From positions 864,001-928,000 of the forward strand of contig CM000430.1 in the NCBI GenBank assembly GCA_000165345.1: 64,000 nucleotides of DNA, read 5' to 3'. The translations under genes were made by a program, and so were the position numbers. The notes beneath the pieces are model-generated. The model saw only the letters and a list, made by a program, of their open reading frames with translations, made no database searches and was not told the DNA's origin. Of the stretch, positions 15,268 through 23,287 are shown one piece after another. Numbering within the stretch: the first letter of the stretch is position 1; every line of letters starts with the position of its first letter.

Positions 15268-18200
15268 TTATTGTTTTTGCAAGCTCTTTTGTTTTGAAAT
15301 GTAAAGCTCTTCCTGAGAAGTCATATAGTTATAATAAGCAGAATTCCCAACGAGGTTGGATCTTTCTCCAACAACTACAACTGAGCCATACTGTGCAGCA
15401 ATTGCTGCTCCACCTAGAACATCCTCCACATCAATATCCTTCAAAATATCTGCTAGTGCTTTGGCTTTTTGTTTATGAACTTTTTTGACCCACTTATGCT
15501 TTCGAAGGTCAAAAACATCTTGGATTAAACAATTCAATCTTGTTGAAATAGATGTATTCTGTAATTCTCTTAGTCTTCCAAACCATTGATCCACAATCAT
15601 CTGTGATTTCTCATTAGAATCCAAGTAATATCCTGTAGTCATAATTAATTGGCAAAGACATTCTACAGCATATTCATCAGGATTCTCTTGTATCATTACT
15701 AGATCAAATACTAGTTCATTCAAACTTCTCATTGGGAACATCTTTCTAATGAAGAGTTCTCCAATCAGTCGGATTATCCCCAAAACATGTAACTTTCGCT
15801 TCCTATACAATATTGCCAGCTCCTCTGAATCGTATTTCTCACGCTCTTCATCTGTTGGAGTCATATTTCGAGGCATATTCTTAAACTCTTGTTCACATCT
15901 TGCCAACAGGGCTTTACTAAAAGCAATTGTTGACTTTCCATCTTTATTCACAAGAACTGGACTCCTCCATTTAAGTATCTGACATAAATCTGCATACATC
16001 TCCGAGAAATCAGGCTCTGTTATTGCTTTATCCAATACTTGCTTCACTAATTCCTCTAGTTCATCCACATTCTTAATCTCATCAATACATACAGCGAGCT
16101 TCTCTGCTATTACTGTAAACTTCTCCACAGTTATTTTATTCAGTAGACTCTTCACAGCTCTCCTTACCGTTTCTAAGGAGTCAACAGTCTGGCCTCCATG
16201 TAAACTTCGTCTCCACGGTCCAACTACTCCGCTGGTACCGCTGCTGCTGCTACTACTACTACTAGTACTGTTGCTATTACTATTACTATTGCTACTACTA
16301 CTGCTGCTAGTAGGAGTTATATTATTACCATTGCCACTACCACCAGTATTATTAGAACTTCCCTCTTTATTATCTGAAGCTGGAATTGACGATTCTAATT
16401 TCTCTCTTCCTTCAATATCTCTGTTTGTTTTTAGGTCGTTCTTCTCTGCAACGATAGAGCTTTCATTAATATTGGTATTGATATTAAAGTCAGCGGATTT
16501 GTTATTTCCATCCAAGTATTCAGAACCCTTGCAAGATAACTTATTACTCATAGAATCTGATCCAGTTGTCACTTTTGCAGAACCAGTATTCTCCGATTCA
16601 TTTGAAGCTGTGGATAACTTCTTTCTAGAATCAACTGATTTCCCTTTCTCTAAACTCATTTCTATATTTGAGGGGTGCTGAGTAACTCCACTTTGGGCCT
16701 TATTTGATATGTTCTTGGACTCATTTTCATTTGGTGAAGCTGATGAAAATACATCTCCGTTATGTGTCTTCTGTTGATCCCCAGTTACATATTTAGGTCT
16801 TTCTTTGGGATGCCCGCCAACTTGGTGACCAGTGGACATTTGACCTCCATTAGTCCCTCCTGATGGGTTGTTGATATTCCTCAAATTCTTATTAAACCTC
16901 TTCTTGTTCTTTTTTTTTTTTAGATCTTCCGAAGTTGTACCACCTACTGCATTCTGCCCATACATATGACCTCCGCTACCCTCTGTTGAATGTTTTGGAT
17001 GAACAAAATTCTGGTTTGGCCCGCCATTGCATGCGTTTGTACCCTTTCCCACATTCTTTGGTCCAGAATATCTTCCATGGCGCCCATATGTGTGATCCCC
17101 GCCATTTTGATTTTTCCATGAACCACCAGTATTATTAGAGAAGTTGTGATTATGACTGTATTGGTTGTGATTATTTGAAGGAATATTTGATCTCAAATTA
17201 TGATCAGTATTGGATTTTTGAGTATTAGAGTAGTCATCTTTAGTCATATCCTTATGTTCTGCAGCAAAATCAGAATTATTGCTCTGTTGTGAATGGGATG
17301 GTTTTTGTGATTGAGCCTGAGGCTGTTGTTGAGTTATGGGCTGGTTCTTTTGTCTTTGTTCAACATTAGCTGTAAGATTATGTTCAGATTCGGAACCTAT
17401 TATTGTTGTCGTTGTCGTTGTTGTCGTTGCTGCTGCTCCAGACCCTGGCTTCCCATTTGAAAAATTCTTGTGTAAAACTGTTCTTGATTCCTTGAGAGAT
17501 GCGTCATTATTGTCTTTTTGGTTAACTCCATGTGATCCTCCTTTACCAATACTGTCCTTGTGCTGATGGTAGTTTGAGTGCTCTCGAGCGCCATGCTGCC
17601 TGCCATACCCATAGTAGTGAGAATCCCCTCCTCCTCTTCTATTTGGAGTTGCATGAAAATCCTTTCTAGAGGTGCTAATACCATTGTTGTTTTGAGAAGA
17701 ATAGTGTTTTCCTCCTTCCTCTTTTGTTGTGGTAGTATGAGGCGTAACATTAGTAATATTGGAAGTATTCGTTGTTGATGATATTACAGTAGTATTTGCG
17801 GGTTTAGATGAGGTAGATGTCGCTACTACTTCTGAGCTAATACTAGTGGTATTTTCAATAGCAGTATTATTGGAAGGGCCATTTTGGAATTGCTGCTGAG
17901 ATTTGTTGTGCTGGTTAAGTTTAGATTGAGAGTTATGCAAAGTCCCTCCTGCACCTCCACCCGAGTTAGAGGATGGGGGAGGTTGTTTTCTATTCAGATC
18001 GTATCCGCCTCCGGAAGAACTTCCATGATTATGTTGTCTATTTCCTGAGTATCCGTATCCTCTTCCTCTTCTATCTTGGTTGTATCTACCCTCATGGTGG
18101 CTGTTATGGCTCGATGACGAGTATGTCTGGTGCTTTTGTTGGAAGTTAGATGATATCTGTCTCTGACTAACTTGTTTGGGATGTTGGGTAGTATTTTGGC

Positions 18201-20247: not shown

Positions 20248-21399
20248 ATGCATTCTTTAGGGAATTCTGGAGATATTCCAGATATGGCTAAAAATAGCGT
20301 GCTATTACATAGCGAACCAATTGATGATAATAGTAGGAAAGTGTTGGGTCCGTCTAAAAATAAATTTACAGATATTACAATCAAAGAATACTGTAAGGAT
20401 ATTAAAAAGATGGGATTTCAAGCTACAAATATTGGAAGAGCAATTGATGAGATTAATAAAATGTTAAGTTGGCGTTTATCAGATGAAAATATTGAACCAG
20501 ATGAAGTAGAACCATATAATGATTTAGAATATAGAAAAAATGTGAAATGTACAATTTGGTTAAGTTTTACATCAAATATGATTTCATCAGGACTTCGTGA
20601 GATATTTGTATATTTAGCAAAGAATAAGTTGATTGATGTAATTGTGACATCAGCTGGTGGCATTGAGGAGGATTTTATTAAGGTTTTAGGGAGTACATTT
20701 CTTGGTGAATTTAATCTTAAAGGTAGTGAACTTAGAAATAAAGGTTGGAATCGAATTGGAAATCTACTAGTTCCAAATCAAAATTATGTAGATTTTGAGG
20801 AATGGATCCAGCCTCTATTTGATGAAATGCTTGAAATGCAAAATAAAGATTCCATAAACTGGACACCTTCAAAAATGATCCATTTTCTGGGTGAGAAAAT
20901 TAATCATGATGAATCACTCTATTATTGGTGCTACAAAAATAATATACCAGTTTTCTGTCCAGGAATTACTGATGGATCATTAGGTGATAACTTATTTTTC
21001 CACTCATATAGGAACCCAGTAAGTTGATTTTGTTCATTTAGAACTAAATTATATATAAATATTCATTTTATTGCTATTTAGGGTCTCAAAGTTGATGTTG
21101 TTGAAGATATTAGAAGAATTAATGATATCGCTCTTAATATTAAAAAGAGTGGAATCATTATTCTTGGAGGAGGAATTCCTAAACACCATACTTGTAATGC
21201 AAATTTAATGAGAAATGGGGCTGACTATGCTGTTTACATATCAAGTGCAACTGAATTTGATGGTTCTGATTCTGGAGCTTCTCCTGATGAAGCTGTCAGC
21301 TGGGGAAAAATCAAAGCTGAAAGCACACCTGTAAAGGTTTTCGGAGATGCAACAATTATTTTCCCGCTTATTTTTTATTCTACTTTTCTTGATACATAG
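20248..21399 (+). CDS. DHS: Deoxyhypusine synthase, 2 exons
   Basis: Exons are 20248..21018 and 21082..21399. The 63-nt intron is GTAAGT..ATTTAG in phase 0. Exon 2 encodes [96 protein letters not shown]. This matches the conserved DHS C-terminus (GGGxxKHH...DEAVSWGKI...PVKVxxDAxxxFPL). Confidence 0.85.
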
Positions 21400-21675
21400 A
21401 TTTTTATATACTTATAAATAAATAAATTTTTTTTTTTAAGTTATTTGGGCTTAAATGCTCTAAATACGTCAATTGTACATTTTCCAAATTCGTCAATAAA
21501 TCTATAAATAATTATTTTATATATTTATGTATGTATAAATATATATTGAAATAAAAACAAGTGTTATGAAATTTTAACAAAATTGTATATGCAAAAATAA
21601 GTGGCCTGAATTGCATGTAATTTATTACACAAATAGGCGGGAAATCCCAAATAATTGCATATATGTTATTACAAC

Positions 21676-22614
21676 TTACCTGTATCTAATAAACTTAATT
21701 TTAGTATTTTCATCCCCAGGTTGTGTCCATCTTGTTTCAATAACTTTACCAGGTAGATTTTCACTTTCACGAGTCATACAAATTGCAGTAACAAGTTGAT
21801 TATTGGTTTTTTCATGTTTAAATTCAATAAACTCAACTCTATTTCTCCATATTCCCACCTCAGGGTTCTTTTCTATAAAAATTTCACCTGACAAATCCCA
21901 GTTCAGAATTTGTGTAGGTCCAAAAAATGGCTCTATCTTAATAACAAGTAATTTTTCATTAGATATTTCAACTTTTAAGGTGTAGCTGCCTTTATTAATT
22001 ACTTTTCTTTTTAACATTCCAACACCAATTTTCTGTAAGAACTGCTCCATATTATCAGATTCCTCACTAATAATCTGCCAGCTTCCAACTAAATCCTGAA
22101 TACATTCTATTTTATTTGATTTTTTTTTTTAAAGTGTTATAAAAAATTGGATTTTTTTATTTTTAACTTACTTTGATTCTTTTCATTTCTTTTCTTTAAG
22201 TCATCTAACTTTTCTATTACATTTTGATTATTTTTTTTGTAATTTATAAAATTTTCTTTAAATCCTACATTACTGAGTAATTTGGGAAGCTCCTCTTTAA
22301 CTAAGACTAAATTAATAATATAATATTCAATAATTTCTCTAATAAGCTTGGAGGATAAGAATTAGATGTATAAGAAACTTACAATTTGGATTTCCTTCGA
22401 TAGGTACATACAAATTATAATCGTCATTCTCCAATAGCTGGGAATAACAAAACATAATTTCATCATATAGTGTACTAGTACCATCCAAACTAATTTGGCC
22501 ATCTCCAGGAGATTCAACTGATGTAATACTTATCTCAAAATGTTCTCCAAAGTCATAGGTCCTAAACTCGCTATAATCCTCCTTCTGTTTTAAAAATGTA
22601 AAGCAATCACACAT
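21676..22614 (-). CDS. Protein with a C-terminal FABP/calycin-like lipid-binding beta-barrel domain and a ~125-aa N-terminal extension, 3 exons
   Basis: Exons on the minus strand are 22412..22614, 22172..22338 and 21676..22106. Introns are 73 nt (GTATGT..TTATTAG) and 65 nt (GTAAGT..AAAATAG). The frame is continuous across both junctions. The domain sequence is KCIQDLVGSWQIISEESDNMEQFLQKIGVGMLKRKVINKGSYTLKVEI...VTAICMTRE...IKFIRYR. It aligns with cytosolic FABPs ([27 protein letters not shown]...). Confidence 0.6.
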
Positions 22615-23257
22615 GTATCTCTATTAATAAATTTATTCCAGAATAATCAGTGGTATAGGCTTATTTTAAAGTATTTGTTGTCATTACTCAGTATGGCAAT
22701 TAAAATTAGCCTGAATAAAAGGTATATATATCTGACACTTATAAATTTATTTTCTTTTTTTTAAGAAAAAAAAAAAGATGCCTGTTTTCTACCTATTTAT
22801 TCCAATTTTATAGATTGCATGAACTTTCCTTTTTCTAAAAAGCCGTTTGGCGCCTAAAGTGCATTATTTTTTATATTATTTTCTTTTATAAAGTTTGAAC
22901 TCGAGAATATGGGAAAAAAGAGGGAAGGAGGGGGGTGAGAAAAATATATATAAATATTAGAGAATAGAGATGAGAAAGGATAAAGAGCAATGACGTGAAA
23001 TTAGGTCAGCACTCATCAAGTACAAAAAAAATGAAATGAAGATTTATAACTTTCTAATTAAAAAAAAAAAATTTAAAATCAACTTTATATACAATTATTT
23101 TTTGACCAGTTTTTAAAATAATTTTAGACTTCCGCCGCCCCCCAATTAAAAAAATTACATGTAATTTAGTATGCCGCCTAATTTATTTTATATACAATAT
23201 TATTTATTTTATTAATGCCGGTACTCGTGTCTCTTTGTCTAAATTTTTAAAAACGGG

Positions 23258-23287
23258 TGGCGCCAACCATCTTTTTGGCGGCAACTG
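23258..23287. promoter_or_regulatory. E2F-like double site GGGTGGCGCCAACC ... TTTTTGGCGGCAA
   Basis: It lies 275 bp upstream of the EF-1beta ATG. Further CCGCC and GCCGG motifs sit at 23131-23226 in the same divergent promoter. Confidence 0.5.

What the first reader, a model, noticed from the sequence alone, without database searches (positions are those of the whole stretch)
21676..22614. FABP/calycin-like beta-barrel domain fused to a novel N-terminal extension in a protist gene
The C-terminal ~140 aa (KCIQDLVGSWQIISEESDNMEQFLQKIGVGMLKRKV...) carry the FABP N-terminal G-x-W motif and the helix-turn-helix GVG-x-x-x-RK signature. Cytosolic FABPs are mainly a metazoan family. Here the domain is the third exon of a 266-aa protein. 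The first two exons (MCDCFTFLKQKEDYSEF... and ...EIIEYYIINLVLVKEELPKLL...) have no recognisable fold. The first exon begins MCD-F, reminiscent of FABP N-termini. This may be a lipid chaperone with a regulatory N-terminal extension, or a degenerate tandem duplication.
Basis: partly seen in the sequence, partly recalled or inferred. Interest (0 to 1): 0.6.

Follow-up and report, generated by a model that had tools for sequence, protein, structure and literature searches.

The report
Cryptosporidium parvum FABP-like gene, mis-spliced

Summary

It is not new. The window is Cryptosporidium parvum, and the correctly spliced 284-aa product is identical to GenBank QOY42834.1, "fatty acid binding protein". 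The barrel part has been annotated under that name as XP_626576.1.

- "EIIEYYIINLVLV" is intron sequence.
- Exon 1 runs on through the conserved YVPIEGNPN.
- The "stop" after IRYR is an AG|GTAAGT donor.
- A fourth exon (21441-21501, FIDEFGKCTIDVFRAFKPK) is conserved in seven Cryptosporidium species. It supplies strand βJ with a family-conserved Arg.

The N-terminal ~108 aa are confined to Cryptosporidium. They show no detectable similarity to FABPs, so a tandem duplication is not supported.

The nearest relatives are in chromerids and gregarines, not animals, so host-to-parasite transfer is unlikely. The clade falls below the Pfam cut-off and lacks the PROSITE FABP signature.

The function (carrier for salvaged fatty acids, perhaps membrane-tethered through N-terminal cysteines) is inferred, not shown.

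The parts
22383..22614 (-). Exon 1 (ATG at 22614-22612). Encodes aa 1-77 plus 1 nt: MCDCF...NDDYNLYVPIEGNPN.
   Evidence: The translation is identical to P0010. A donor GT at this position is present in all five aligned species. The exon tail is 79-83% identical to C. canis and C. felis with no gaps.
22307..22382 (-). Intron 1 (76 nt, GTAAGT...TTTAG). A second AG 6 nt downstream (22301) gives the 282-aa models.
   Evidence: Indels are not multiples of three: 1 nt against C. hominis, 7 against C. canis, 28 against C. felis. Only the first acceptor exists in C. felis.
22172..22306 (-). Exon 2: (F)LVKEELPKLLSNVGF...KRNEKNQ. It holds the invariant LPKLLSN motif and the start of helix α0, which leads into the barrel.
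   Evidence: The helix at residues 109-126 has pLDDT about 87.
22107..22171 (-).
   Evidence: Donor and acceptor are conserved. The alternative acceptor used in the 276-aa public models is absent in C. felis and out of phase in C. canis.
21680..22106 (-). Exon 3: KCIQDLVGSW...KIKFIRY(R). Encodes strands βA to βI and the helix-turn-helix lid of the FABP-like barrel.
   Evidence: Gap-free in all five species, 68-98% identity. AF2 pLDDT about 90.
21502..21679 (-). Intron 3 (178 nt, AG|GTAAGT...TTATAG). The intron contains a GGCGGGAAA motif at 21636-21644.
   Evidence: Length and sequence vary widely between species: 24 gap columns against the chipmunk genotype, 29 against C. canis and 119 against C. 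felis. The donor is invariant.
21441..21501 (-). Exon 4: (R)FIDEFGKCTIDVFRAFKPK plus the TAA stop (21441-21443). Encodes the end of βI and all of βJ, including the conserved Arg (R279 in 284-aa numbering).
   Evidence: Conserved in frame in seven Cryptosporidium species. Aligns with the ..DRILKY.. C-terminus of chromerid and gregarine homologues. Predicted strand 271-281 has pLDDT about 90.
21444..22208 (-). Genomic span of the FABP-like (iLBP-fold) domain including helix α0. This is aa ~111-284 of the 284-aa protein, interrupted by introns 2 and 3.
22848..22854 (+). TGGCGCC motif 235 nt upstream of the ATG. A second, palindromic copy lies at 23258-23265. Possible promoter element.
   Evidence: The motif occurs 18 times in the window against 0.12 expected. 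Assigning it to this gene is inference.

Best explanation
**What it is.** The locus is the four-exon Cryptosporidium parvum gene for a 284-aa 'fatty acid binding protein' (identical to GenBank QOY42834.1). Residues ~111-284 are predicted to fold as an intracellular lipid-binding-protein barrel. The order of elements is a lead-in helix α0, strand βA with G-x-W, a helix-turn-helix lid (..FLQKIGVGMLKRKV..), and nine further strands. The last strand is encoded by exon 4.

**Most likely function (inferred).** The barrel encloses a hydrophobic ligand that carries a carboxylate. Long-chain fatty acid is the most probable ligand. It would be held by the family-conserved arginines in βG, βH and βJ (MTR, ETR and FRAF). 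The protein would carry that ligand through the parasite cytosol. C. parvum cannot make fatty acids de novo, and its megasynthases CpFAS1 and CpPKS1 use long-chain fatty acids as starter units.

**The N-terminal part (more weakly inferred).** The ~108-aa N-terminal part is confined to Cryptosporidium and is not FABP-derived. I propose that it positions the barrel. Its cysteines next to Met1 (MCDCF) are candidates for S-acylation, which would tether the carrier to a membrane.

**Shown:** gene structure, predicted fold, family relationship and phylogenetic distribution. **Inferred:** ligand, salvage role and acylation.
For: **Identity.** The spliced product equals P0010/QOY42834.1. Cluster members are named 'fatty acid binding protein' in C. 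parvum, C. hominis and C. tyzzeri.

**Gene model.** Exons are gap-free or carry 3n gaps, and introns do not. Exon 4 is conserved in seven species.

**Fold.**
- AF2 with a 16-sequence alignment gives pLDDT about 90 for residues 110-282, with 10 strands and two lid helices.
- The top 11 Foldseek PDB hits are all iLBP-fold proteins (10 with E<=0.001), with target-normalised TM 0.56-0.76.

**Sequence.**
- phmmer gives E=3.4e-4.
- The family profile hits 143 PDB sequences; all 60 listed are iLBPs, best E=7.5e-7.
- HHalign against five FABP/CRABP sequences gives 96.5% probability.
- Global HHalign places FRAF on FABP4 R126-V-Y128.
- G, W, K-R, R(βG), E-T and a nearly invariant R(βH) and R(βJ) are conserved across 14 family members.

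**Distribution.** Only 21 hits at E<=1e-3 among 1.84 billion representative proteins. Those that could be assigned come from Cryptosporidium spp., Vitrella, Chromera, Siedleckia and Trichotokara.

**Context.** C. parvum lacks de novo fatty-acid synthesis, and CpFAS1/CpPKS1 prefer long-chain fatty-acid starters (PMC6568194).

**N-terminal cysteines.** A cysteine lies within residues 2-6 in all Cryptosporidium species and in Vitrella, Siedleckia, P0037 (MLCCGF) and P0038 (MCPFFC).
Against: - No ligand, localisation or expression data were found. No paper on the parasite protein exists in the held library.
- The fold does not fix the ligand. Close structural neighbours bind retinoids, bilirubin (UnaG) and bile acids, and one (the Oplophorus luciferase subunit) is an enzyme.
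- The match of conserved arginines to FABP R106/R126 rests on strand position and a low-confidence global alignment. Model coordinates could not be inspected.
- The domain scores below Pfam's gathering cut-off (17.9 against 23). Only 2 of 14 family members hit PF00061 at all. None matches the PROSITE FABP signature.
- The N-terminal region is modelled with pLDDT below 50, so nothing structural supports a tethering role. Several relatives lack an N-terminal cysteine, although their start codons may be mis-called.
- The splice junctions rest on comparative evidence and public models. I could not examine RNA reads.
Confidence: 0.6

Rival explanations
1. One reading: a 266-aa, three-exon protein in which the FABP domain is exon 3 alone. 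The N-terminal exons would be a regulatory extension or a degenerate second FABP copy (tandem duplication).
For: The reading frame closes with the stated junctions. The protein starts MCD-F, like FABP4's MCDAF. A TAA follows IRYR, and several public models (C. meleagridis, C. canis, C. felis, C. serpentis) also stop there.
Against: - The skipped YVPIEGNPN is conserved.
- Exon 4 is conserved in seven species and in distant homologues.
- Without exon 4 the barrel lacks βJ and the conserved Arg.
- The N-terminal profile against FABP profiles gives 0.2-0.3% probability.
Confidence: 0.03
2. The barrel is a real iLBP-fold domain, but its physiological ligand is not a fatty acid. It could be another hydrophobic carboxylate or lipid (bile acid, retinoid-like isoprenoid, haem or bilin, lysolipid, acyl-CoA). 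Alternatively it could act as a sensor or enzyme rather than a carrier.
Against: - Fatty acid is the commonest ligand in this fold.
- The parasite has a documented need for exogenous long-chain fatty acids.
- The conserved Arg cluster fits a carboxylate, although that is also true of bile acids and tetrapyrroles.
Confidence: 0.3
3. The FABP domain was acquired by Cryptosporidium from an animal host by horizontal gene transfer and then fused to a parasite-specific N-terminus.
For: Canonical iLBPs are essentially an animal family (established view). Cryptosporidium lives inside FABP-rich enterocytes. The literature says Toxoplasma has no FABP (PMC8929637).
Against: - The closest homologues are free-living chromerids (Vitrella, Chromera) and gregarines (Siedleckia, Trichotokara). 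They have the same layout, with the barrel at the C-terminus behind an extension.
- Metazoan FABPs are far more distant, with E about 1e-4 against 1e-8 or better and at most 20% identity.
- The gene has three spliceosomal introns and conserved synteny (V-ATPase H, EF-1β, FABP, DHS) across the genus, including the gastric species C. serpentis.
Confidence: 0.04

Closest known systems
Public annotation of the same gene: C. parvum 'fatty acid binding protein' QOY42834.1 / WRK31187.1 (284 aa), XP_626576.1 / EAK88640.1 (124 aa, Iowa II), and C. hominis PPS94421.1 (282 aa)
   Same: The 284-aa product of the window is identical to QOY42834.1. The name, the barrel assignment and the four-exon structure are already in GenBank.
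   Different: Nothing differs for C. parvum. Public models disagree with one another (124, 259, 276, 282 and 284 aa). Models for C. meleagridis, C. canis, C. felis, C. ryanae and C. serpentis omit exon 4. I found no experimental paper.
Metazoan intracellular lipid-binding proteins (iLBPs): FABP1-9, CRABP1/2, CRBPs, C. elegans LBP-8 (PDB 6c1z)
   Different: - 10-20% identity.
- A 2-residue insertion after βA breaks the PROSITE signature.
- Below the Pfam PF00061 cut-off.
- Barrel of about 165 aa with longer strands, against about 130 aa.
- An extra lead-in helix α0 and a 108-aa N-terminal extension.
- Phe in place of Tyr128.
- Found in apicomplexans and chromerids, not animals.
Uncharacterised chromerid and gregarine proteins: Vitrella CEM33100.1, Chromera Cvel_8142, and Siedleckia and Trichotokara transcripts
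   Same: The same divergent barrel family, with shared G.W, S, G, KR, N, G, G.W, R, ETR and R(βJ). The barrel is always C-terminal behind a non-homologous extension. An N-terminal cysteine is frequent.
   Different: 22-26% identity to the C. parvum barrel. The extensions are unrelated to the Cryptosporidium N-terminus. The gregarine-like members carry a C-x-C..H..P-x-FPL-x-T-x-PG motif that is absent in Cryptosporidium.
C. parvum acyl-CoA-binding protein CpACBP1 (Zeng, Cai & Zhu 2006, cited in PMC7029560)
   Same: A small lipid-carrier module in the same parasite. It has been proposed to act in lipid trafficking at the parasitophorous vacuole. This is a functional analogue.
   Different: An unrelated all-helical fold. 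It binds acyl-CoA esters rather than free fatty acids, and it has been characterised experimentally.

Membership tests
iLBP / cytosolic FABP family (fold level) | 10-stranded antiparallel β-barrel with a helix-turn-helix lid inserted between βA and βB | tested here: met
   [not shown]
iLBP / cytosolic FABP family (sequence level) | Statistically significant sequence similarity to known iLBPs | tested here: met
   phmmer against the PDB gives E=3.4e-4, with only iLBPs among the hits shown. The family profile gives E=7.5e-7. HHalign gives probability 96.5%, E=1e-9, over the first 82 columns.
iLBP / cytosolic FABP family (Pfam PF00061) | Score at or above Pfam's gathering threshold (23 bits) | tested here: not met
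   17.9-18.2 bits, matching only profile positions 1-42. Only 2 of 14 family members hit at E<=1.
iLBP / cytosolic FABP family (PROSITE FABP signature, pattern recalled from memory) | [GSAIVK]-{FE}-[FYW]-x-[LIVMF]-x-x-{K}-x-[NHG]-[FY]-[DE]-x-[LIVMFY]-[LIVM]-{N}-{G}-[LIVMAKR] at the N-terminus | tested here: not met
   A regex of the pattern matches 5 of 5 metazoan control sequences and 0 of 14 members of this clade. A 2-residue insertion (..SEESDNME..) shifts the register.
iLBP / cytosolic FABP family | Carboxylate-binding residues: Arg in βH and the R-x-Y in βJ (FABP4 R106, R126, Y128) | tested here: inconclusive
   Conserved R in βG (MTR), βH (ETR) and βJ (FRAF). Global HHalign puts FRAF on R126-V-Y128, with Y replaced by F, at low confidence.
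iLBP / cytosolic FABP family | Single-domain protein of about 14-15 kDa (127-140 aa) | tested here: not met
   284 aa: a 108-aa genus-specific extension, helix α0 and a barrel of about 165 aa.
iLBP / cytosolic FABP family | Binds one or two fatty acids or another lipid inside the barrel | not testable with these tools
   Needs recombinant protein and binding assays.
Lipocalins (8-strand calycins) | 8-stranded barrel with a C-terminal helix and the lipocalin SCR motifs | tested here: not met
   [not shown]
Nitrobindin / THAP4 / Rv0813-type FABP-like barrels | 10-strand barrel without the iLBP lid signature; closest structural match expected to these proteins | tested here: not met
   [not shown]
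N-terminally S-acylated (palmitoylated) membrane-tethered proteins | Cysteine(s) next to the initiator Met that are acylated, with membrane association dependent on them | not testable with these tools
   Only the sequence prerequisite is seen: C2/C4 in C. parvum, and a cysteine within residues 2-6 in 9 of 15 family N-termini.

The most novel reading that the evidence does not exclude
The Cryptosporidium protein would represent an ancient, non-metazoan branch of the iLBP/FABP fold, shared by apicomplexans and chromerids. The branch was kept in Cryptosporidium and gregarines and is not detected in Toxoplasma or Plasmodium. Its members would be membrane-tethered through N-terminal S-acylation rather than freely soluble. 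In Cryptosporidium it would work at the host-parasite interface as a dedicated acceptor for salvaged host fatty acids. That would make it a parasite-specific, druggable lipid-uptake step. It would also show that FABP-type carriers predate animals.
Probability: 0.2. Interest if true: 0.55.

Novelty: already known. Interest (0 to 1): 0.27.

Why it matters
C. parvum cannot synthesise fatty acids and must take them from the host. A parasite-specific carrier that differs from host FABPs (at most 20% identity, with extra elements) is therefore a reasonable but untested drug or knockout target.

For annotation, the practical gain is the comparative proof that exon 4 belongs to the gene. The public models of C. 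meleagridis, C. canis, C. felis, C. ryanae and C. serpentis all omit exon 4 and so lack the last barrel strand; some also differ at other junctions or lack the N-terminal exons.

For evolution, the apicomplexan/chromerid clade shows that iLBP-like barrels are not confined to animals. Pfam and PROSITE miss this clade.

None of this changes the fact that the gene and its FABP assignment are already public.

Tried and rejected
1. AF2 on a four-sequence Cryptosporidium-only alignment gave pLDDT 35.8 and was unusable. It was rescued by adding chromerid and gregarine homologues.
I used an alignment of database orthologues instead.
3. Tandem duplication was tested with profile-profile comparisons and rejected. 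The N-terminal profile against the PDB found nothing (E=1.9).
4. Host-derived HGT was rejected on the distribution of homologues.
5. The alternative intron-2 acceptor of the 276-aa public models was rejected. It is not conserved in C. canis or C. felis.
6. I searched JGI metagenome contigs for a spliced exon3-exon4 junction as a proxy for transcript evidence and found 0 hits.
7. The Foldseek afdb50 library was unavailable.
8. Literature searches for a characterised Cryptosporidium FABP found only host FABP biomarker papers. Zhu 2004 and Zeng 2006 are not held. The 2026 sporozoite proteome has no held supplements.
9. Local HHalign did not extend into the second half of the barrel. The global alignment of that half has low confidence.

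Full report
**1. What is in the sequence**

The window is AT-rich (20-40% GC). The feature lies on the minus strand.

The C-terminal part alone hits only intracellular lipid-binding proteins in the PDB. These include C. elegans LBP-8, FABP4, myelin P2 and CRABP2, with best E=3.4e-4 over residues 126-190. Pfam PF00061 is hit at 18.2 bits, below its 23-bit cut-off. The resemblance is therefore real but weak at the single-sequence level.

**2. Identity of the gene**

A database search returned five proteins, all from Cryptosporidium and mostly named 'fatty acid binding protein'. The 90% cluster holds nine public models from C. parvum, C. hominis, C. tyzzeri and C. meleagridis. Their lengths are 124, 259, 276, 282 and 284 aa.

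The window is 100% identical to the C. parvum members wherever they align. My final spliced product is identical to P0010, which is QOY42834.1/WRK31187.1, 'fatty acid binding protein [Cryptosporidium parvum]'. The barrel part has been in GenBank under that name as XP_626576.1/EAK88640.1. The finding is therefore already annotated.

**3. Gene model**

I fetched the orthologous loci of C. hominis, the chipmunk genotype, C. canis, C. felis, C. ryanae and C. serpentis. All sit in the same neighbourhood, between the EF-1β and deoxyhypusine synthase genes; V-ATPase subunit H lies beyond EF-1β in the four loci fetched with wide flanks. I aligned five of them and scored each segment.

| Segment | Result |
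|---|---|
| Exons | Gap-free or with 3n gaps |
| The three introns | Indels of 1-119 nt, not multiples of three, and lower identity |

Three corrections or confirmations follow.

- **(a) Intron 1.** The donor is the GT after CCAAAT+1 nt (GTAAGT, GTATGT or GTGAGT in the different species; window 22382). The acceptor TTTAG (22307) is the only one available in C. felis. A second AG 6 nt downstream explains the 282-aa models.
- **(b) Intron 2.** The alternative acceptor of the 276-aa models is not conserved.
- **(c) The 'stop' after IRYR.** It is the TAA inside an invariant AG|GTAAG donor. After an intron of very variable length lies a 61-nt exon (21501-21441) encoding (R)FIDEFGKCTIDVFRAFKPK*.

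The exon-4 equivalents in other species, all in frame, are:

| Species | Exon-4 peptide |
|---|---|
| C. canis | FIDEGGRCTMDIFRAFKPKLS |
| C. felis | LIDNDEKCKIEVFRAFKPK |
| C. ryanae | LFNIDEKCTIDIFRAFKRK |
| C. serpentis | LFENGQQIMDIFRAFKPQK |

Chromerid and gregarine homologues continue past the IRYR position with a segment that aligns to this exon, including a conserved Arg.

The gene therefore spans 21441-22614 and has four exons: 22614-22383, 22306-22172, 22106-21680 and 21501-21441.

I could not look at RNA reads. A search for the spliced junction in metagenome contigs found nothing.

**4. The C-terminal domain**

A profile of four Cryptosporidium orthologues, searched against 1.84 billion representative proteins, found only 21 hits at E<=1e-3. 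Besides Cryptosporidium these are:
- Vitrella brassicaformis and Chromera velia (chromerids);
- Siedleckia nematoides and Trichotokara eunicae (gregarines);
- several unnamed environmental or SRA-derived proteins;
- one foraminiferan FABP-like protein.

In every full-length relative apart from the foraminiferan one, the domain is C-terminal behind an unrelated extension.

With only four sequences AlphaFold2 failed (pLDDT 35.8). With the 16-sequence alignment it gave pLDDT about 90 for residues 110-282. The predicted elements, in 282-aa numbering, are:
- helix 109-126;
- βA 128-132;
- helices 141-146 and 151-159;
- nine more strands, ending at 271-281.

Structure and profile comparisons agree:
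- The top 11 Foldseek PDB hits are all iLBP-fold proteins: CRABP2, Echinococcus FABP1, UnaG, locust FABP, NanoLuc and LBP-3. Ten have E<=0.001, and target-normalised TM is 0.56-0.76.
- The 14-member domain profile hits 143 PDB sequences; all 60 listed are iLBPs, best E=7.5e-7.

At the level of curated signatures the clade fails. Pfam gives 17.9 bits against a cut-off of 23, and only 2 of 14 members hit. The PROSITE FABP pattern, recalled from memory, matched all five controls and none of the 14 members. The cause is a 2-residue insertion after βA.

Residues conserved across the clade are G-x-W (βA), S, G, K-R (lid), N, G, G-x-W, R (βG, MTR), E-T-R (βH) and R (βJ, FRAF). A global HHalign places FRAF on FABP4 R126-V-Y128 at low confidence. 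This suggests a carboxylate-binding site like that of FABPs, but I could not inspect side-chain geometry.

**5. The N-terminal extension**

Residues 1-108 have homologues only in Cryptosporidium. Conserved blocks are MCDCF, FEISITSVESPGDG, LYDEIMFCY..LLENDDYNLYIPIEGNPN and LPKLLSN.

They match nothing in Pfam or the PDB. They are modelled with pLDDT below 50, apart from a helix at 48-60. They show no similarity to the barrel profile or to metazoan FABPs (probabilities 0.2-0.3%). The tandem-duplication idea is not supported, and 'MCD-F' is best treated as coincidence.

What does recur is a cysteine within residues 2-6. It is present in all Cryptosporidium species and in Vitrella (MAPCD), Siedleckia (MLCM), P0037 (MLCCGF) and P0038 (MCPFFC). 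N-terminal cysteines of this kind are classical S-acylation sites (general knowledge, for example GAP-43 and PSD-95). I therefore propose membrane tethering as a hypothesis. It is inference only.

**6. Mechanism**

- Shown: a conserved, spliced gene under purifying selection that encodes a domain predicted with high confidence to have the iLBP fold.
- Inferred: the barrel binds a hydrophobic carboxylate, most likely a long-chain fatty acid, and carries it within the parasite.

C. parvum lacks de novo fatty-acid synthesis, and its CpFAS1 and CpPKS1 megasynthases prefer long-chain fatty acids as starters (PMC6568194). A review states that Toxoplasma has no FABP (PMC8929637). This agrees with the absence of any hit assignable to coccidia or haemosporidia.

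I found no experimental study of the parasite protein in the held literature.

**7. Rivals**

- A non-fatty-acid ligand or another role cannot be excluded. Close structural neighbours bind retinol, bilirubin and bile acids or are luciferase subunits.
- Host-to-parasite gene transfer is unlikely. The nearest relatives are chromerids and gregarines, the gene has three introns, and synteny holds across the genus.

**8. Verdict**

The gene model needs two corrections, and the duplication idea is not supported. The gene with its FABP label is already public, so novelty is low.

The remaining points of modest interest are these. The protein belongs to an apicomplexan/chromerid iLBP-like clade that I did not find described in the held literature and that Pfam and PROSITE miss. 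Several public orthologue models lack the last barrel strand. The N-terminal cysteine motif suggests a tethered rather than a soluble carrier.

Noticed in passing
window 22848-22854, 23258-23265, and 16 further matches across the window: The motif TGGCGCC (mostly as the palindrome TGGCGCCA) occurs 18 times in the window against 0.12 expected from shuffles. Two copies lie in the intergenic region upstream of the FABP-like gene. It resembles the E2F-type upstream motif reported for Cryptosporidium (from memory).
   Followed up: partly
window 21636-21644 (inside intron 3): The only GGCGGGAAA (E2F-like) site in the window lies inside intron 3. The core CCCGCC is kept in C. hominis and the chipmunk genotype, and partly in C. 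canis, although the rest of the intron is poorly conserved.
   Followed up: no
window 21397-21443: The stop codons of the convergent deoxyhypusine synthase gene (TAG 21397-21399, + strand) and the FABP-like gene (TAA 21441-21443, - strand) are only 41 nt apart. Their 3' UTRs must overlap or be extremely short.
   Followed up: no
window 21676-21684; L002, L003, L007, L008: The intron-3 donor AG|GTAAGT contains an in-frame TAA, so intron retention would yield a protein without strand βJ. Public models of C. meleagridis, C. canis, C. felis and C. serpentis stop there, and the C. ryanae model runs into the intron. Exon 4 is nevertheless conserved in the six other species whose loci I examined; the C. 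meleagridis locus was not fetched. These look like mis-annotations.
   Followed up: yes
window 22301-22311: Tandem acceptors TTTAG and TCTTAG lie 6 nt apart at the end of intron 1. This explains the coexisting 284-aa (..NFLVKEE..) and 282-aa (..NFKEE..) public models. Only the upstream one exists in C. felis.
   Followed up: partly
proteins P0018, P0019, P0026, P0028, P0031, P0033, P0038 (relatives, not in the window): Gregarine-like relatives share a motif C-x-C..H..(D/N)P-x-FPL(I/V)T-x-PG immediately upstream of the barrel. It is absent from Cryptosporidium and the chromerids, and its function is unknown.
   Followed up: no
[not shown]
   Followed up: no
window 16001-18000: A 2-kb stretch with 39.6% GC stands out from the 20-30% background of its neighbours. 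It was not examined.
   Followed up: no
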